Below, in pieces: positions 1 through 13,444 of a stretch of DNA of 13,444 bases. Source of the DNA: a virus. Its lineage: Duplodnaviria > Heunggongvirae > Uroviricota > Caudoviricetes. The position numbers were made by a program, and so were the translations under genes. Below the pieces are notes generated by a model. It ran no database searches. It saw nothing but the letters and a program-made list of their open reading frames with translations, and was not told the DNA's origin. The stretch is from the IMG/VR virus record IMGVR_UViG_2645727539_000014, positions 1-13,444 of that record; one strand, 5' to 3'. Numbering within the stretch: position 1 is the first letter of the stretch; every line of letters starts with the position of its first letter.

Positions 1-1007
<1,007 letters not shown>

Positions 1008-3326: not shown

Positions 3327-3740
3327 ATGAAAAAACTCATGCCGTTGATTTTCTCAGCAGTTTTTTTTCTGACGGGGTGTGCAACCATTGTCGGAGATAA
3401 AACGCAGACTGTTCAGGTAAACAGTAATCCAGCTGGCGCGGATTTTATTATTAAAGATGAGTCAGGGAAAACAATTTCTTCGGGCAAAACACCGCAGAAT
3501 GTAACACTTGAAAAATCTGACGGCAGTTACTTCGGGAAAAAGAGTTATCAGATCACATTCAGCAAAGAGAATTATCAGCCTGTAACGCTGCCGATCAAGG
3601 CATCGGCTAATGGATGGTACATTGGTGGTAACTTTGTCTTTGGCGGTATTGTTGGCTGGTTGCTTGTGGACCCATTCAATGGCGGTATGTATACGCTGAG
3701 TCCGGAAAGTCTGAACCCCGGACTGGTACCTGAAAGTTAA
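3327..3740 (+). CDS. Lipoprotein (moron) with PEGA-like beta-sandwich motif and Gly-rich hydrophobic C-terminal segment
   Basis: MKKLMPLIFSAVFFLTGC has a signal peptide and lipobox LTGC; Ala at +2 predicts outer-membrane sorting. The NPAGADFIIKDESGKTISSGKTPQNVTL...YQITFSKENYQPVT stretch is PEGA-like. The gene is AT-rich against GC-rich flanks and has GGAG 9 nt upstream of the ATG. Confidence 0.8.
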   Translation: MKKLMPLIFSAVFFLTGCATIVGDKTQTVQVNSNPAGADFIIKDESGKTISSGKTPQNVTLEKSDGSYFGKKSYQITFSKENYQPVTLPIKASANGWYIGGNFVFGGIVGWLLVDPFNGGMYTLSPESLNPGLVPES

Positions 3741-7070: not shown

Positions 7071-7404
7071 GATAAAAACGCTGCATCTGGTCCCGCGTGA
7101 AGGGATGCAGGTGAGTGAAAAACCGTCGGTGGCGAGGGTACGGTTTGGTGACGGTTATGAACAGCGTCGGCCGACGGGCCTGAATGCCCAACTGAAGACG
7201 TTTCAGGCGGTGTTTCGGGTGACGGATGAACCAACCCGGCGCTGGCTGGATGAATTTTTATCGTGGCATGGTGGTTACCGTGCTTTTTTGTGGCGACCGC
7301 CGAAACATAACCGAACGGTAAAGGTTGTGTGCCGTGAATGGAGCGTTACGGATAATGCCCGGTACAGTGATTTCAGCTGTACGATTGAGCAGGTGGTGAA
7401 CTGA
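7063..7404 (+). CDS. M: Minor tail protein M
   Basis: Translation ...PSVARVRFGDGYEQRRPTGLNAQLKT...FLWRPP...EQVVN matches lambda gpM as recalled. The start is probably GTG 7063, overlapping the tape measure stop; ATG 7105 is the alternative. Confidence 0.85.
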   Translation: MAEIKTLHLVPREGMQVSEKPSVARVRFGDGYEQRRPTGLNAQLKTFQAVFRVTDEPTRRWLDEFLSWHGGYRAFLWRPPKHNRTVKVVCREWSVTDNARYSDFSCTIEQVVN

Positions 7405-8102
7405 TGCAGGATATTCATGAAGAAAGCCTGAACGAGTCGGTTAAAGCGGAGCAGTCTCCGCGGGTGGTGCTCTGGGAAATCGACCTGACGGTGCAGGGCG
7501 GTGAGCGGTATTTTTTCTGTAATGAACTGAATGAGAAAGGGGAGCCGGTCACCTGGCAGGGGCGGGAATATCAGGCATACCCGATTGAGGGCAGCGGTTT
7601 TGAGATGAACGGGAAGGGCAGCAGTGCCAGACCGTCGCTGACGGTGTCCAATCTGTTCGGTCTTGTCACCGGTATGGCGGAGGACCTGCAGAGTCTGGTG
7701 GGGGCCACGGTAGTCCGCCGTCGGGTGTATGCGCGTTTTCTGGATGCGGTGAACTTTGTGGCAGGCAATCCTGAGGCAGACCCGGAGCAGGAGCTGACGG
7801 ACCGGTGGGTGGTGGAGCAGATGTCAGAGCTGACGGCCATGACGGCCTCGTTTGTGCTGGCCACGCCGACGGAGACGGACGGGGCGCTGTTTCCCGGTCG
7901 CATTATGCTGGCGAACACCTGTATGTGGACCTACCGCTCTGATGAGTGTGGTTACACGGGTGGGGCAGTGGCGGATGAGTATGACCAGCCGACGCCCGAT
8001 ATCACAAAGGACAAATGCAGCAAGTGTCTGCGCGGGTGTGAGATGCGCAACAATGTCGGCAATTTTGGCGGTTTCCTTTCCATTAATAAACTTTCGCAGT
8101 AA
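7404..8102 (+). CDS. L: Minor tail protein L (tail tip complex)
   Basis: MQDIHEESLNE...VVLWEIDLT...GGERYFFCNE...GNFGGFLSINKLSQ closely matches lambda gpL as recalled. The ATG overlaps the M stop (TGATG). Confidence 0.9.
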   Translation: MQDIHEESLNESVKAEQSPRVVLWEIDLTVQGGERYFFCNELNEKGEPVTWQGREYQAYPIEGSGFEMNGKGSSARPSLTVSNLFGLVTGMAEDLQSLVGATVVRRRVYARFLDAVNFVAGNPEADPEQELTDRWVVEQMSELTAMTASFVLATPTETDGALFPGRIMLANTCMWTYRSDECGYTGGAVADEYDQPTPDITKDKCSKCLRGCEMRNNVGNFGGFLSINKLSQ

Positions 8103-8107
8103 ATCCA

Positions 8108-8851
8108 ATGACACAGACAGAATCAGCGATTCTGGCGCATGCCCGGCGGTGTGCGCCTGCGGAGTCGTGCGGCTTTGTGGTGAGAACGCCGGAGGGGGAG
8201 CGCTATATCCCTTGTGTGAATATCTCTGCAGAGCCGGAGGCGTATTTTCGTATTGCACCGGAAGACTGGCTGCGGGCAGAGATGCAGGGGGAGATTGTGG
8301 CACTGGTCCACAGTCATCCCGGTGGTCTGCCCTGGCTGAGCGAGGCAGACCGGCGACTGCAGATAAAAAGCGCACTGCCCTGGTGGCTGGTCTGCCGGGG
8401 TGACATTCACAAATTCCGCTGTGTGCCGCACCTGACCGGACGGCGCTTTGAGCACGGGGTGACGGACTGTTACACGCTGTTCCGGGATGCATACCATCTG
8501 GCGGGAATTGATATGCCGGATTTTGAGCGTGAGGATGACTGGTGGCGTAACGGTCAGAACCTTTACCTGGACAATATGGCGGTCACCGGCTTTTACCGGG
8601 TGCCCCTGTCCTCTGCACAGGCGGGCGATATCCTGCTGTGCTGCTTTGGCGCATCGGTGGCCAATCATGCCGCCATTTACTGCGGCAACGGTGAGCTGCT
8701 TCACCATCTGCCTGAACAACTGAGTAAACGGGAGAGGTATTCCGAAAAATGGCAACGACGAACGCATTCAGCCTGGCGTCACCGCCACTGGCACGTATCT
8801 GCCTTCACGGGGATTTACAACGATTTGGCCGCCGCCTCAGCCTGTATGTGA
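8108..8851 (+). CDS. K: Tail assembly protein K (MPN/JAMM plus NlpC/P60-like domains)
   Basis: The N-terminus MTQTESAILAHARRCAPAESCGFVV and the HSHPGGLPWLSEAD JAMM-like motif are lambda K-like, followed by a Cys/His NlpC/P60-like region. The ORF overlaps the I start by 103 nt. Confidence 0.85.
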   Translation: MTQTESAILAHARRCAPAESCGFVVRTPEGERYIPCVNISAEPEAYFRIAPEDWLRAEMQGEIVALVHSHPGGLPWLSEADRRLQIKSALPWWLVCRGDIHKFRCVPHLTGRRFEHGVTDCYTLFRDAYHLAGIDMPDFEREDDWWRNGQNLYLDNMAVTGFYRVPLSSAQAGDILLCCFGASVANHAAIYCGNGELLHHLPEQLSKRERYSEKWQRRTHSAWRHRHWHVSAFTGIYNDLAAASACM

Positions 8852-9429
8852 ACACGGCAGCGGAAGCCATCCGTGCCCTGTCGATGCAGATGCCTGGATT
8901 CCGCCGTCAGATGAACGAAGGCTGGTACCAGATACGTATTCGCGGTGAGGACACGGCACCGGAGGCGGTGTACGCCCGTCTTCACGAACAGCTGGGTGAG
9001 GGAACGATCATCCACATTGTGCCGCGACTGGCCGGGGCCGGAAAAGGTGGACTGCAGATTGTGCTGGGGGCGGCAGCCATCGTGGGCTCTTTCTTCACTG
9101 CCGGGGCATCAATGGCGTTATGGGGTTCAGCCCTGGCAGCCGGTGGTTTTTCTGCCACCACGATGCTGTTTTCACTGGGGGCCAGCATGATACTGGGTGG
9201 TGTGGCTCAGATGCTGGCCCCGAAGGCTAAAGTACCGGAGTACAAAAGCACGGATAACGGTAAACAGAACACGTACTTTTCGTCACTGGACAATATGATT
9301 GCCCAGGGTAACCCGATGCCGGTGCCTTACGGGGAAATGCTGGTTGGCTCCCGGCGAATCTCTCAGGACATCAGTACCCGTGATGAAGGCGGTGGCGGGA
9401 AGGTCGTGGTTATCGGGCGGCAGAGGTAA
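8749..9429 (+). CDS. I: Tail assembly protein I
   Basis: ...ARICLHGDLQRFGRRL...GGLQIVLGAAAIVGSFFTAG...NGKQNTYFSSLDNMIAQGN... matches lambda gpI as recalled. Confidence 0.85.
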   Translation: MATTNAFSLASPPLARICLHGDLQRFGRRLSLYVNTAAEAIRALSMQMPGFRRQMNEGWYQIRIRGEDTAPEAVYARLHEQLGEGTIIHIVPRLAGAGKGGLQIVLGAAAIVGSFFTAGASMALWGSALAAGGFSATTMLFSLGASMILGGVAQMLAPKAKVPEYKSTDNGKQNTYFSSLDNMIAQGNPMPVPYGEMLVGSRRISQDISTRDEGGGGKVVVIGRQR

Positions 9430-9469
9430 AAAGAATAAAAAAATCCCGCAGTGTTGCGGAGCTGCGGGA
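9428..9469 (-). terminator. Minus-strand-oriented intrinsic terminator in the I-J intergenic island
   Basis: Hairpin TCCCGCAG-(10 nt loop)-CTGCGGGA at 9444-9469. On the minus strand it is followed by TTTTTTTATTCTTTTT; on the plus strand there is no downstream U-run. Confidence 0.4.
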
Positions 9470-9599
9470 GAGTTACGAAGATTAACTATAGAGAATTATT
9501 CTTATGTCACGACAAAAAACATTAACGCAGAGAAATTATTAGTACCACAGTCAGTTTGTGAAAATGTGAAGATATTCAGAATTTTTATTCAGTGATGAT

Positions 9600-9630
9600 A
9601 CAGGCATCCTCCGGGATGCCTGTTGTTTTT
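9600..9630 (+). terminator. Plus-strand intrinsic terminator immediately upstream of J
   Basis: ACAGGCATCC-TCCG-GGATGCCTGT, a 10-bp perfect stem with 4-nt loop, followed by TGTTTTT. It lies about 35 nt upstream of the J start codon. Confidence 0.55.
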
Positions 9631-9664
9631 GTGCGTAACAGTTATCACAGTAAAGGGTGAGACA

Positions 9665-12600
9665 ATGGGCAAAGGTGGCGGCAAGGCGCACACGCCGGTT
9701 GAGGCAAAGGACAATCTTAAGTCCACGCAGATGATGAGCGTGATTGATGCCATTGGTGAAGGGCCGATTGAAGGTCCGGTGAAGGGACTGCAGAGTATTC
9801 TGGTGAACAAAACCCCGCTGACGGACACTGACGGCAATCCTGTGATACACGGTGTGACCGCGGTCTGGCGCGCCGGGGAGCAGGAGCAGACACCACCCGA
9901 AGGCTTTGAGTCCTCCGGGGCGGAAACCGCACTGGGCGTGGAAGTGACGAAGGCAAAGCCGGTGACGCGCACCATTACATCCGCGAACATTGACCGCCTG
10001 CGGGTCACCTTCGGGGTGCAGTCACTGGTGCAGACCACGTCAAAGGGTGACCGAAACCCGACATCCGTCCGCCTGCTGATTCAGTTACAGCGTAACGGTA
10101 ACTGGGTGACGGAAAAGGATGTCACCATTAACGGCAAGACCACCTCGCAGTTTCTGGCGTCGGTGATTCTGGATAATCTGCCTCCCCGTCCTTTTAACAT
10201 CCGGATGGTCCGGGAGACAGCGGACAGCACCTCGGACCAGCTGCAGAATAAGACGCTCTGGTCGTCATACACCGAAATCATCGATGTGAAACAGTGCTAC
10301 CCGAACACGGCGATTGTGGGGCTGCAGGTGGATGCGGAGCAGTTTGGCGGTCAGCAGATGACGGTGAACTACCATATCCGAGGTCGCATCATCCTGGTGC
10401 CGTCAAACTATGACCCGGAAAAACGCACTTACAGCGGCATCTGGGACGGCAGCCTGAAACCGGCATACAGCAACAACCCGGCCTGGTGCCTGTGGGACAT
10501 GCTGACTCACCCGCGCTACGGCATGGGAAAACGTCTGGGGGCGGCGGATGTGGACAAGTGGGCGCTGTATGCCATCGGGCAGTACTGCGACCAGACGGTC
10601 CCGGATGGTTTCGGGGGCACAGAGCCGCGGATGACCTTTAATGCGTACCTGTCACAACAGCGTAAGGCGTGGGACGTTCTCAGTGATTTCTGCTCGGCGA
10701 TGCGCTGTATGCCGGTATGGAACGGCCAGACGCTGACGTTCGTTCAGGACCGCCCGTCGGATGTGGTGTGGCCGTACACCAACTGCGATGTGGTGGTGGA
10801 TGATAACGGCGTGGGGTTTCGCTACAGCTTCAGCGCCCTGAAGGACCGCCACACGGCGGTGGAGGTGAATTACACCGACCCGCAGAACGGCTGGCAGACC
10901 TCCACGGAACTGGTGGAAGACCCGGAAGCCATACTGCGCTACGGGCGCAACCTGCTGAAGATGGATGCGTTCGGTTGCACCAGTCGCGGTCAGGCCCACC
11001 GTGCCGGGCTGTGGGTGATAAAGACCGGACTGCTGGAAACGCAGACGGTGGATTTCACGCTCGGGTCACAGGGGCTGCGTCACACCCCCGGTGACATCAT
11101 TGAAATCTGTGATAACGACTACGCCGGTACCATGACCGGCGGACGTGTCCTGTCCATCGATGCCGCCAGCCGCACCCTGACACTGGACCGTGAGGTGACC
11201 CTGCCGGAGACAGGTGCCGCCACGGTGAACCTGATTAACGGCAGCGGTAAGCCGGTGAGCGTGGCCATCACTGCACACCCCGCGCCGGACCGGATACAGG
11301 TCAGCACCCTGCCTGATGGTGTGGAGACATACGGTGTATGGGGACTCTCCCTGCCGTCACTGCGTCGTCGCCTGTTCCGCTGTGTTTCCATCCGGGAAAA
11401 CACGGACGGCACCTTTGCCATCACGGCGGTGCAGCACGTACCGGAAAAAGAAGCCATCGTGGATAACGGGGCGCACTTTGACGGCGACCAGAGCGGCACG
11501 GTGAACGGGGTCACGCCGCCAGCGGTGCAGCACCTGACCGCAGAAGTCACCGCAGACAGCGGGGAATATCAGGTGCTGGCGCGCTGGGACACGCCGAAGG
11601 TGGTGAAGGGGGTGAGTTTTATGCTTCGCCTGACCGTGGCCGCGGATGACGGCAGTGAGCGGCTGGTCAGCACGGCCCGGACGACGGAAACCACATACCG
11701 CTTCACGCAACTGGCGCTGGGGAACTACAGGCTGACAGTCCGGGCGGTAAATGCGTGGGGACAGCAGGGCGATCCGGCATCGGTATCGTTCCGGATTGCC
11801 GCACCGGCAGCGCCGTCACAGATTGAGCTGACGCCGGGCTATTTTCAGATAACTGCCACGCCGCATCTTGCGGTTTATGATCCGACGGTACAGTTTGAGT
11901 TCTGGTTCTCGGAAACGCGGATTACCGATATCAGGCAGGTTGAAACCACAGCCCGCTACCTTGGCACGGGGCTGTACTGGATAGCCGCCAGTATCAATAT
12001 CAAACCGGGCCATGATTATTACTTTTATATCCGCAGTGTGAACACCGTTGGCAAATCGGCATTCGTGGAGGCCGTCGGTCGGGCGAGCGATGATGCGGAA
12101 GGTTACCTGGATTTTTTCAAAGGCAAGATAACCGAATCCCATCTCGGCAAGGAGCTGCTGGAAAAAGTCGAGCTGACGGAGGATAACGCCAGCAAACTGG
12201 AGGAGTTTTCGAAAGAGTGGCAGGACGCTAACGATAAGTGGAATGCCATGTGGGGCGTCAAAATTGAGCAGACCAAAGACGGCAAACATTATGTCGCGGG
12301 TATTGGCCTCAGCATGGAGGACACGGAAGAAGGCAAGCTGAGCCAGTTTCTGGTTGCCGCTAACCGTATCGCGTTTATTGACCCGGCAAACGGGAATGAA
12401 ACGCCGATGTTTGTGGCGCAGGGCAATCAGATATTTATGAACGACGTGTTCCTGAAGCGCCTGACGGCCCCGACCATTACCAGTGGTGGAAATCCACCGG
12501 CATTTTCCCTGACGTCAGACGGAAAGCTGACCGCTAAAAATGCGGATATCAGTGGCAGTGTGAATGCGAACGCCGGGACGCTCAACAATGTCACGGTAAA

Positions 12601-13078
12601 TGAAAACTGTACGATTAAGGGCATGCTGGAGGCGACTCAGGTCAGAGGTGACTTCGTTAAAGCTGTATCCAAATCATTCCCGAAACAGGCTGGTACGTGG
12701 GGTAACACGGAAACACCAAACGGGACGGTTACAGTCACCATCAGTGATGATCATAACTTTGACCGTCAAATCATTATTCCGCCCATTATCTTTAACGGAA
12801 TAGCGTATAGCTATCCGGGAAGTGGTAATAACCCGGGAGGTACAAGTTACACGGGTTATGGTTTTGAAGTTCGCAAAAACGGTGTATTAATCGCATCCAG
12901 AGAAACTAAAGGGGCCATTCCCGGTAGTTACAGTGCAGTTATTGATATGTCTAGTGGTGGTGGTAGCGTCACTCTGGAGTTTAAGATTTTCCAGAAAGGC
13001 AATCAGGGGGCAGGCAATATCACCGACTGTACGGTGATTGTGACCAAAAAAGCGGCTTCCGGCATCAGTATTCGTTGA
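9665..13078 (+). CDS. J: Tail tip / central fibre host-specificity protein J, with a divergent C-terminal receptor-binding region
   Basis: N-terminus [39 protein letters not shown], and long stretches further in, match lambda J as recalled. About 1137 aa from ATG 9665 (RBS AAGGGTGAG); the ORF-track start at 9623 is a TTG inside the terminator. The last ~150 aa differ from lambda J. Confidence 0.95.
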
Positions 13079-13100
13079 AATATTTATAACCCCAATAAAT

Positions 13101-13126
13101 GGCGTCAGGAATGACGCCTTTTTTAT
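13101..13126 (+). terminator. Rho-independent terminator downstream of J
   Basis: GGCGTCA-GGAA-TGACGCC followed by TTTTTTATT. Confidence 0.6.
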
Positions 13127-13148
13127 TGCAGAAAAGCGAGAGGTAATT

Positions 13149-13444
13149 ATGCGTAAAGTTTGTGCAGCCATTTTGTCCGCAGCCATCTGTCTGTCCGTAT
13201 CCGGTGCGCCTGCATGGGCGTCTGAACATCAGTCCACACTGAGCGCGGGGTATCTTCATGCCCGGACGAACGCTCCCGGTAGCGATAATCTTAACGGGAT
13301 TAACGTGAAATACCGTTATGAATTTACGGACACGCTGGGGCTGGTGACGTCATTCAGCTATGCAGGAGACAAGAATCGCCAGCTTACCCGTTACAGCGAT
13401 ACCCGCTGGCATGAAGATTCCGTGCGTAACCGCTGGTTCAGCGT
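13149..13444 (+). CDS. lom: Lom/Ail/PagC/OmpX-family outer-membrane beta-barrel protein, 5' part only; continues beyond the window end
   Basis: [24 protein letters not shown] is a signal peptide with an AWA-S cleavage site. The following ...[10 protein letters not shown]...[24 protein letters not shown]... is typical of the first strands of Ail/Lom barrels. It sits immediately downstream of J as lom does in lambda, with a GAGAGG RBS. Confidence 0.8.

What the first reader, a model, noticed from the sequence alone, without database searches (positions are those of the whole stretch)
12600..13078. Mosaic J: divergent, AT-rich C-terminal receptor-binding region
J matches lambda J closely over most of its length, but similarity is lost in the last ~150 aa (from about ...[27 protein letters not shown]...), and the DNA there is visibly more AT-rich. 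In lambda the C-terminal region of J determines receptor specificity (LamB). A swapped C-terminus therefore predicts a different outer-membrane receptor and host range.
Basis: partly seen in the sequence, partly recalled or inferred. Interest (0 to 1): 0.5.

Follow-up and report, generated by a model that had tools for sequence, protein, structure and literature searches.

The report
Phage-434-type receptor-binding tip on J
The tail-tip protein J of this E. coli prophage ends in the well-known phage-434 version of the receptor-binding domain, which points to the porin OmpC rather than lambda's LamB as receptor; it is a real but ordinary, already catalogued module swap.

Summary
J (9665-13078, 1137 aa) is 92-100% identical in DNA to lambda J over nt 11459-12574. 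From about nt 12585-12616 to the stop, DNA identity falls to about 50% and protein identity to 26-44%. GC falls from 0.59 to 0.47 and GC3 from 0.72 to 0.46 (chi-square p = 2.5e-7).

The divergent part is still the same domain, Pfam Ig_GpJ_C, and its model matches the lambda gpJ receptor-binding domain fold. It is not new. It is 92% identical, without gaps, to the receptor-binding domain of phage 434 J, the classical OmpC-using lambdoid phage, and 98-99% identical in DNA to phages Evi and 2B8. The next domain class is below 50% identity. This domain type occurs in 2,088 of 5,426 complete E. coli genomes. The identical J protein is in E. coli O55:H7 RM12579, and the whole gene is 96% identical to J of Stx2c- and Stx1a-converting phages.

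J is a three-part mosaic: an EHEC-phage-type N-terminus, a lambda/434-type shaft and a 434-type tip. Novelty: already known. Interest: low.

The parts
9665..13078 (+). Gene J (tip attachment / host specificity protein, central tail fibre), 1137 aa plus stop codon
   Evidence: Translation. Pfam order is FNIII-A_GpJ, Phage-tail_3, Ig_J, Ig_J_second, Phage_Tail_Tip, Ig_GpJ_C. The identical protein is in O55:H7 RM12579 and three other assemblies.
9665..11458 (+). N-terminal module of J (hub domains and first Ig/FNIII), EHEC/Stx-phage type
   Evidence: 91-100% DNA identity to phage 2851 and Stx2c_PV98-693, but 57-87% to lambda, 434 and Evi. Breakpoint at nt 11429-11500 with chi-square 160-389.
11459..12574 (+). 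Middle module of J (second Ig/FNIII, helical shaft, beta-prism fibre), lambda/434 type
   Evidence: 91-100% DNA identity to lambda, 434 and Evi, but 40-78% to phage 2851. Domain names follow the lambda structure paper PMC11101478.
12490..12600 (+). Conserved joint (...[35 protein letters not shown]...) where receptor-binding modules are exchanged
   Evidence: Nearly identical in all J classes compared. Breakpoints against lambda (12616) and phage 2851 (12536) flank it. The same point, lambda aa 964, was used to build functional gpJ chimeras (PMC11338833).
12575..13075 (+). 434-type receptor-binding region (aa 971-1137); Pfam Ig_GpJ_C covers aa 1001-1136 (nt 12665-13072)
   Evidence: 92% aa identity to 434 J without gaps; 98% to Evi/2B8, 96% to Stx2c phage, 94% to phage 2851, 44% to lambda, 50% to A8/phi330. 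Pfam E = 6.9e-25. AlphaFold model has pLDDT 81, and its best PDB matches are lambda gpJ 8xck/8xcj and A8 gpJ 9wca/9wcb. GC3 is 0.46.
12686..12715 (+). Loop aa 1008-1017 ([10 protein letters not shown]), longer than in lambda and phi330; candidate OmpC contact
   Evidence: Aligns with phi330 loop T918-Y921. PMC12502783 reports from AlphaFold3 that the longer 434 loop contacts OmpC. Positions 1008/1009 are polymorphic within the class.
12809..12847 (+). Hairpin aa 1049-1061 ([13 protein letters not shown]), an insertion relative to lambda; candidate OmpC-barrel-entering loop. Carries the allele-specific changes D1050Y and R1061S.
   Evidence: Aligns with phi330 hairpin E953-S962, said to point into the OmpC barrel. 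In the model, the two strands at model residues 107-110 and 119-122 (J aa 1047-1050 and 1059-1062) flank the loop. Y1050 and S1061 co-occur here and in P0002; almost all the others have D and R.
12950..12967 (+). Loop aa 1096-1101 (SSGGGS), with serine in place of a proline that is near-invariant in all J tip classes (DMP motif)
   Evidence: 16 of 17 sequences of the 434 class have P1096, as do lambda, A8 and phi330. The codon is TCT at 12950-12952.
12986..13009 (+). Loop region aa 1108-1115 (IFQKGNQG), polymorphic within the class; candidate OmpC-rim contact
   Evidence: [quoted passage not shown] Variants I/V1108, Q/H1110 and G/W/R1115.
13101..13126 (+). Intrinsic-terminator-like hairpin and T-run after J
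   Evidence: 7-bp stem with 5 GC pairs, followed by TTTTTTATTG. A terminator is annotated at the same place in phage 434. This intergenic DNA is of the 434/Evi/2851 type (82-98%), not the lambda type (37%).
13149..13444 (+). lom (Ail/Lom outer-membrane protein), cut by the contig end; 434 type, so the segment that differs from lambda continues past J
   Evidence: Pfam Ail_Lom E = 5e-56. 86-100% DNA identity to 434 against 27-77% to lambda.

Best explanation
Nt 12575-13075 encode the distal receptor-binding domain of the J trimer, the central tail fibre of a lambda-like siphovirus tail, in its phage-434 allelic form.

Shown here:
- It is an Ig_GpJ_C domain.
- Its model matches the lambda gpJ and A8 gpJ receptor-binding domain fold.
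- It belongs to the same tight sequence class as the tip of phage 434 J.
- It is joined to the rest of J at a conserved linker where other J alleles also switch.

Inferred from established knowledge:
- Like 434 and lambda h434, a virion carrying this J would bind the trimeric porin OmpC instead of LamB.
- As seen for lambda with LamB and A8 gpJ with OmpC, insertion of the distal loops into the porin would spread the three domains, twist the beta-prism fibre, flip the helical shaft and open the tail tip for DNA ejection.

The low GC and GC3 are a shared trait of this exchangeable module, not a recent event. The module circulates by homologous recombination among E. coli lambdoid prophages.
For: Identity to lambda J:
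- DNA identity is 0.92-1.00 up to nt 12574 and about 0.5 after it. The breakpoint is at 12616-12629, chi-square 194 against a permutation maximum of 28.

Class membership:
- The last 174 aa are 92.0% identical to phage 434 J, 97.7% to Evi/2B8 and 96% to Stx2c/Stx1a-converting phages.
- The distribution is bimodal: 74 phage records at 90-99%, all others below 60%.
- Pairwise identities are 434 0.92, lambda 0.44, A8/phi330 0.50. There are no gaps against 434, and J has the same length of 1137 aa.

Domain and fold:
- Pfam Ig_GpJ_C covers aa 1001-1136, 88 bits against a cut-off of 26.
- The AlphaFold model has pLDDT 81. Its top four PDB hits are lambda gpJ (8xck, 8xcj) and A8 gpJ (9wca; 9wcb, the complex with OmpC), E = 1e-14 to 1e-17.

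Receptor:
- Phage 434 uses OmpC, and lambda with the 434 J allele binds OmpC (PMC3509688; PMC11101478).
- Lambda and 434 J are identical at 942 of 961 positions before the tip and about 50% identical in DNA after it.
- The sequenced lambda h434 imm21 hybrid carries this tip (99.6% identical in DNA to that of 434). Its 434-derived DNA starts at J aa ~711.
- Swapping only the region after lambda aa 964 is enough to retarget lambda particles from LamB to OmpC, shown for the gpJ variants A8 and 1A2 (PMC11338833).

Distribution and composition:
- The tip type is present in 2,088 of 5,426 complete E. coli genomes.
- GC3 is 0.46-0.49 in all five 434-type tips against 0.62 in lambda.
Against: - No experiment ties this exact allele to OmpC. 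It differs from 434 at 14 of 176 positions.
- Three of those changes (D1050Y, R1061S, P1096S) are absent from the four phage alleles compared. The first two lie in a candidate receptor-contact hairpin and the third in a neighbouring loop.
- OmpC recognition among J variants can be allele-specific: 1A2 uses EDL933 OmpC but not K-12 OmpC.
- The classical h434 segment also carries 434 lom and side-tail-fibre genes. The old genetics alone therefore do not map OmpC use to the tip only.
- No solved structure of a 434-type tip was found.
- The contig is 13.4 kb and flanked by an IS fragment, so it is unknown whether the prophage is functional.
Confidence: 0.85

Rival explanations
1. It is a 434-class tip, but this allele has shifted specificity. 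It would recognise only a subset of OmpC alleles (for example the O55/O157 type and not K-12), or another porin such as OmpF, because of its private changes in the contact loops.
For: - D1050Y and R1061S flank the hairpin that aligns with the phi330 loop reported to enter the OmpC barrel.
- P1096S replaces a proline conserved in all classes.
- Most common polymorphisms within the class fall in the candidate contact loops.
- gpJ variant 1A2 discriminates between OmpC alleles.
- Single J mutations let lambda and phage 21 use OmpF or OmpC (PMC11336670).
Against: - Overall identity to the 434 tip is 92%, and 98% to Evi/2B8. Evi's host is not recorded.
- The loops keep their length and most of their sequence.
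- Loop contacts are taken from an AlphaFold3 model of a different class published elsewhere. They were not measured for this class.
Confidence: 0.1
2. The AT-rich tip marks a recent import of foreign (non-Escherichia) DNA into this particular prophage. On this view it is not a standing E. coli phage module.
For: GC3 of 0.46 is far below the rest of J (0.72) and below the other tail genes (0.57-0.70).
Against: - The same low GC3 (0.46-0.49) is seen in every 434-type tip examined, including phage 434 itself, isolated from a Paris sewer in the late 1950s.
- The type is in 38% of complete E. coli genomes, and fragments also come from Shigella sonnei and E. albertii.
- The phi330/A8 tip is also low in GC (0.48).
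- The whole J is 96% identical to J of Stx2c phages, with no breakpoint at the tip.
Confidence: 0.02
3. The gene is a relic in a defective prophage. The tip is never assembled into virions and so has no present role in host range.
For: The contig starts with an IS3-family transposase fragment next to the head-tail connector genes, and no head genes are present in the window. Many EHEC/EPEC lambdoid prophages are defective (general knowledge).
Against: - J is an intact 1137-aa frame, identical in four independent assemblies.
- All tail genes in the window are intact open frames in the normal order.
- Contig ends at IS and lom repeats are what a draft assembly is expected to produce.
Confidence: 0.15

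Closest known systems
Phage 434 central tail fibre J (UMO75286.1, OL657226), receptor OmpC
   Same: Same J length (1137 aa). The receptor-binding region is 92% identical with no gaps, including the 434-specific loops GTWGNTET and PGSGNNPGG. The middle of J is 91-100% identical in DNA. The terminator and lom downstream are of the same type.
   Different: The N-terminal ~600 aa are only about 76% identical in DNA. There are 14 substitutions in the tip, including D1050Y, R1061S and P1096S.
J of Stx2c- and Stx1a-converting phages of E. coli O157 (LC727876-LC727902), phage 2851 vhsJ, and the prophage J of O55:H7 RM12579
   Same: The RM12579 protein is identical. The Stx2c/Stx1a phage genes are 96.0-96.4% identical over the whole length, with the same three-part arrangement. 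Phage 2851 shares the N-terminal module and the tip.
   Different: Phage 2851 has a different middle module (40-78% identity). In RM12579 the same L-K-I-J-lom block is joined to a lambda-like tail tube and tape measure instead of the HK97-like one here.
Lambda gpJ (P03749; PDB 8iyk, 8xck, 8xcj), receptor LamB
   Same: Same domain order and the same tip fold. Same gene neighbourhood M-L-K-I-J-lom. Near-identical shaft, aa ~600-970.
   Different: The tip is 44% identical, with two loop insertions here (2 and 6 aa) and two deletions (1 and 3 aa) relative to lambda. LamB specificity is therefore not expected.
A8 gpJ chimera / phage phi330 J tip (PDB 9wca, 9wcb with OmpC; PV189401)
   Same: Same fold and same position in J. 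Experimentally an OmpC binder.
   Different: A different sequence class: 50% identity, with shorter first loop and different hairpin sequences. Any use of OmpC by both classes would rest on non-identical contacts.

Membership tests
Lambda-like tip attachment protein J (central tail fibre) | Domain order: hub domains, two Ig/FNIII domains, tail-tip fibre domain, C-terminal Ig-like receptor-binding domain | tested here: met
   Pfam FNIII-A_GpJ (aa 86-207), Phage-tail_3 (330-498), Ig_J (610-714), Ig_J_second (716-818), Phage_Tail_Tip (845-972) and Ig_GpJ_C (1001-1136), all far above their cut-offs.
Lambda-like tip attachment protein J (central tail fibre) | Position in the tail-tip gene block: M, L, K, I, J, then lom | tested here: met
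   Pfam calls on neighbouring genes: Phage_min_tail, Phage_tail_L, NLPC_P60, Lambda_tail_I, J, Ail_Lom. Same order as lambda.
434-type J receptor-binding domain (OmpC class) | High sequence identity to the phage 434 J tip and clear separation from other tip classes | tested here: met
   92% aa identity to 434. 74 phage records lie at 90-99% and all others below 60%. Identity matrix.
434-type J receptor-binding domain (OmpC class) | Class-specific loop lengths (no insertions or deletions relative to 434) | tested here: met
   Gap-free alignment of 176 aa with 434, Evi, 2851 and the Stx2c phage. Lambda and phi330/A8 need gaps at three or four places.
434-type J receptor-binding domain (OmpC class) | Fold of the lambda gpJ receptor-binding domain (Ig-like beta sandwich) | tested here: met
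   Model pLDDT 81. Top Foldseek hits are 8xck, 9wca, 8xcj and 9wcb, probability 1.00. The monomer model has TM of about 0.6, lowered by the extended linker.
434-type J receptor-binding domain (OmpC class) | Infection or adsorption depends on OmpC and not on LamB | not testable with these tools
   Known for phage 434 and lambda h434 only from the literature. Needs adsorption or plating assays on ompC and lamB deletions.
Lambda-type (LamB-binding) J receptor-binding domain | Close identity to lambda J aa 962-1132, including loops L1-L4 | tested here: not met
   44% identity, with loop insertions and deletions.
A8/phi330-type (OmpC-binding) J receptor-binding domain | Close identity to the tip solved in complex with OmpC (PDB 9wcb) | tested here: not met
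   50% identity, while phi330 and A8 are 99% identical to each other.

The most novel reading that the evidence does not exclude
The allele in this window (identical in O55:H7 RM12579) carries a coupled D1050Y/R1061S change at the base of the candidate porin-entering hairpin, plus P1096S at an otherwise near-invariant proline. These changes could retune the 434-type tip to a particular OmpC allele or to a different porin. That would give a natural example of how few loop changes redirect an OmpC-class J protein.
Probability: 0.1. Interest if true: 0.35.

Novelty: already known. Interest (0 to 1): 0.12.

Why it matters
It allows a confident receptor prediction (OmpC, not LamB) for a prophage tail found in EPEC/EHEC-lineage E. 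coli. It also illustrates the conserved joint at about J aa 960-975, where lambdoid phages and phage engineers exchange receptor-binding tips. It adds no new biology. The module, its receptor in the type phage, its fold and its wide distribution are all already documented.

Tried and rejected
- I looked for the sequences of the engineered gpJ variants 1A2 and A8 in the supplements of PMC11338833, to see whether 1A2 is of the 434 class. No sequence text is held. A8 was recovered from PDB 9wca instead and is the phi330 class.
- I searched the paper library for 'h434' with OmpC (no hits) and for receptor data on mEp332, Stx2c phage 2851 and long-tailed Stx phages. I found no receptor experiment for a 434-class tip other than 434 itself.
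- I first assumed phage 21 was a native OmpC user. It uses LamB and only evolves OmpC use.
- A hit in a strain labelled DH5alpha raised the possibility that phi80, which uses FhuA, carries this tip. The locus is a lambda-like prophage at the Qin site, not phi80.
- The large protein-database search returned mostly contig-end fragments and added little beyond host range (E. coli, Shigella sonnei, E. albertii) and material for the alignment.
- Foreign origin as the explanation for the AT-richness was rejected because the composition is common to the whole class.
- The alternative-frame and minus-strand ORFs inside the region (12600-12803 +, 12427-12624 -, 12887-13186 -) were not pursued. They lie within a conserved, intact J reading frame.
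Full report
**What the window is.** The 13,444-base window is a whole contig (JHSD01000126.1, assembly GCA_001265815.1) of a draft E. coli genome. It carries the tail genes of a lambdoid prophage, in this order:
- head-tail connector genes;
- a major tail protein, the chaperones G and T, and a small AT-rich lipoprotein gene;
- a 1088-aa tape measure;
- M, L, K, I, J and the start of lom.

J runs from the ATG at 9665 to the stop at 13076-13078 (1137 aa).

**Check of the observation.** I aligned this J with lambda J (NC_001416).
- Protein identity in 50-aa blocks is 68-88% for aa 1-500, 48% for aa 501-550 and 82-100% for aa 551-950. It then falls to 74, 42, 26 and 30% in the last four blocks.
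- DNA identity is 0.92-1.00 for nt 11459-12574 and 0.47-0.57 from nt 12575 to the end.
- A maximum chi-square scan places the change at nt 12616-12629, with chi-square 194 against a maximum of 28 in 1000 permutations. The first cluster of mismatches begins at about nt 12585.
- The last 504 nt have GC 0.468 and GC3 0.464, against 0.589 and 0.721 for the rest of J. For 12600-13078 against the rest, chi-square is 26.6, p = 2.5e-7.

Three refinements apply.
- The tip is still homologous to lambda's: 40% identity, E = 2e-26.
- Only aa ~600-970 are close to lambda. The N-terminal 600 aa are about 75% identical in DNA.
- The GC decline starts at about nt 11840, inside the lambda-like part, and deepens in the tip.

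**What the segment is.** Pfam assigns aa 1001-1136 to Ig_GpJ_C, the C-terminal receptor-binding domain of tip attachment protein J (88 bits, cut-off 26). The rest of J has the full lambda gpJ domain order. An AlphaFold model of aa 941-1137, built on an alignment of 24 sequences, has mean pLDDT 81. Its four best matches among solved structures are:
- the lambda central fibre, closed (8xck) and bound to LamB (8xcj);
- the A8 gpJ fibre, closed (9wca) and bound to OmpC of E. coli EDL933 (9wcb).

**Which tip it is.**
- A translated search of 50,697 phage records with the last 174 aa gives a sharply bimodal result: 74 records at 90-99% identity and all others below 60%.
- The high group includes phage 434 (92.0%), Evi and 2B8 (97.7%), Stx2c- and Stx1a-converting phages (96%), Ayreon, phage 2851 (94%) and mEp332, all. 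Phage cdtI joins them by DNA identity (97.3%).
- A direct comparison gives identities of 0.92 to 434, 0.98 to Evi, 0.44 to lambda and 0.50 to the phi330/A8 tip. The alignment with 434 has no gaps, whereas lambda and phi330/A8 need several.
- The tip type occurs in 2,088 of 5,426 complete E. coli genomes, with up to seven copies per genome. Fragments also come from Shigella sonnei and E. albertii.
- The identical J protein is present in E. coli O55:H7 RM12579.
- The whole gene is 96.0-96.4% identical to J of 27 Stx2c- or Stx1a-converting phage records.

**J is a three-part mosaic.**
- Nt 9665-11458 match phage 2851 and the Stx2c phage (91-100%) but not lambda, 434 or Evi (57-87%).
- Nt 11459-12574 match lambda, 434 and Evi (91-100%) but not phage 2851 (40-78%).
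- Nt 12575-13078 match Evi (97-99%), the Stx2c phage (92-99%), phage 2851 (89-99%) and 434 (88-97%), but not lambda (about 50%).
- The breakpoints are strongly supported, with chi-square 112-390.
- The joint before the tip (...[35 protein letters not shown]...) is conserved in all classes. It is the point, lambda aa 964, used to build working gpJ chimeras (PMC11338833). It is the likely site of homologous exchange.
- Relative to lambda, the replaced DNA does not stop at the end of J. The terminator (13101-13126) and lom are also of the 434 type.

**Receptor inference.**
- Reviews and the lambda-LamB structure paper state that phage 434 uses OmpC, and that lambda carrying the 434 J allele binds OmpC instead of LamB (PMC3509688; PMC11101478).
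- Lambda and 434 J are identical at 942 of 961 residues before the tip and about 50% identical in DNA within it. The tip is thus the only substantial difference inside J.
- The sequenced lambda h434 imm21 hybrid carries the 434 tip (99.6%). Diagnostic sites show its 434-derived DNA begins at J aa ~711 and continues through lom and the side-fibre genes. The classical genetics alone therefore do not isolate the tip.
- That gap is largely closed by engineering work. Replacing only the part after lambda aa 964 retargets side-fibre-independent lambda particles from LamB to OmpC (PMC11338833).
- Side fibres are dispensable for plaque formation in lambda (PMC12617516). This argues that an absolute need for OmpC reflects J.

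I conclude, with about 0.85 confidence, that this tip binds OmpC.

**Mechanism by analogy (inferred, not shown here).** The mechanism follows the lambda-LamB and A8-OmpC structures. The distal loops of the three domains enter the porin trimer. The domain bottoms spread, the beta-prism twists, the helical shaft flips, and the tail tip opens.

**Variation inside the class.**
- This allele differs from 434 at 14 positions.
- At three positions (D1050Y, R1061S, P1096S) it differs from all four phage alleles compared.
- Y1050 and S1061 occur together here and in one database cluster, while almost all the others have D and R.
- In the model these two residues sit on the two strands of the hairpin PGSGNNPGG.
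- That hairpin and two other polymorphic loops (aa 1008-1017 and 1108-1115) align with the phi330 loops that an AlphaFold3 model in PMC12502783 places in contact with OmpC.
- P1096S replaces a proline conserved across all tip classes.

This leaves a modest chance, about 0.1, that the allele prefers particular OmpC variants. Such allele preference is documented for gpJ variant 1A2.

**Composition.** Low GC3 (0.46-0.49) is shared by all five 434-type tips, against 0.62 for lambda's tip and 0.55 for phi330's. It is a trait of the module, not evidence of a recent foreign import into this genome.

**Verdict.** The finding is correct and its interpretation is supported, and the receptor can be named as most likely OmpC. 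It describes a known, very common allele of a textbook modular protein. Novelty: already known. Interest: low.

Noticed in passing
window 3327-3740 (+): A 137-aa ORF with a lipoprotein signal (MKKLMPLIFSAVFFLTGC...). It is the most AT-rich gene in the window (GC 0.44, GC3 0.44) and is inserted between tail chaperone T and the tape measure. It matches PHROG 6823 (unknown function) and has only a sub-threshold PEGA hit. It looks like a moron; a role in superinfection exclusion is pure speculation.
   Followed up: partly
window 7385 (M/L junction); window 7385-13444 against L006 7721-13780: The L-K-I-J-lom block is 98.4% identical to a prophage of O55:H7 RM12579. Everything upstream differs: here a different (non-lambda) major tail protein and an HK97-like 1088-aa tape measure, there lambda-like V/G/T/H with an 859-aa tape measure. 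The same tail tip is therefore combined with two unrelated tail tubes.
   Followed up: partly
window 274-621 (-) and 467-589 (-): The left contig end carries an IS3-family transposase orfA fragment (HTH_Tnp_1). An Rfam isrC sRNA hit (150 bits) overlaps it, directly next to the head-tail connector genes.
   Followed up: no
window 9430-9664: The I-J spacer is 235 nt and AT-rich (GC about 0.43-0.46), against 60 nt in lambda. It has a hairpin plus T-run at about 9603-9632, immediately upstream of the J ribosome-binding site. The same spacer is present in the RM12579 prophage.
   Followed up: no
window 11165-11308 (J aa ~501-550): A short patch inside the N-terminal module where identity to lambda, 434 and Evi drops further (0.57-0.59 in DNA, 48% in protein). 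It remains 97-99% identical to phage 2851 and the Stx2c phage. It is a second local hypervariable spot in J.
   Followed up: no
window 12812-12814, 12845-12847, 12950-12952: Allele-specific codons Y1050, S1061 and S1096 in the tip. The first two co-vary (D/R in almost all other alleles) across a hairpin. The third replaces a proline that is near-invariant in all J tip classes.
   Followed up: partly
L012 (lambda h434 imm21, OM418627) record nt 17619-17637: In the sequenced classical hybrid, the crossover from lambda to 434 DNA lies inside J at about aa 711. The 434 segment extends through lom, stf and beyond, so the historical h434 host-range allele is much larger than the receptor-binding tip.
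   Followed up: yes
L010 (NZ_CM135829.1, strain labelled DH5alpha) 555880-596368: This assembly has a complete lambda-like prophage with a 434-type J at the Qin locus (between nohA and pinQ/ydfK). That is unexpected for a K-12 DH5alpha derivative, so the strain label or its history may deserve a check.
   Followed up: no
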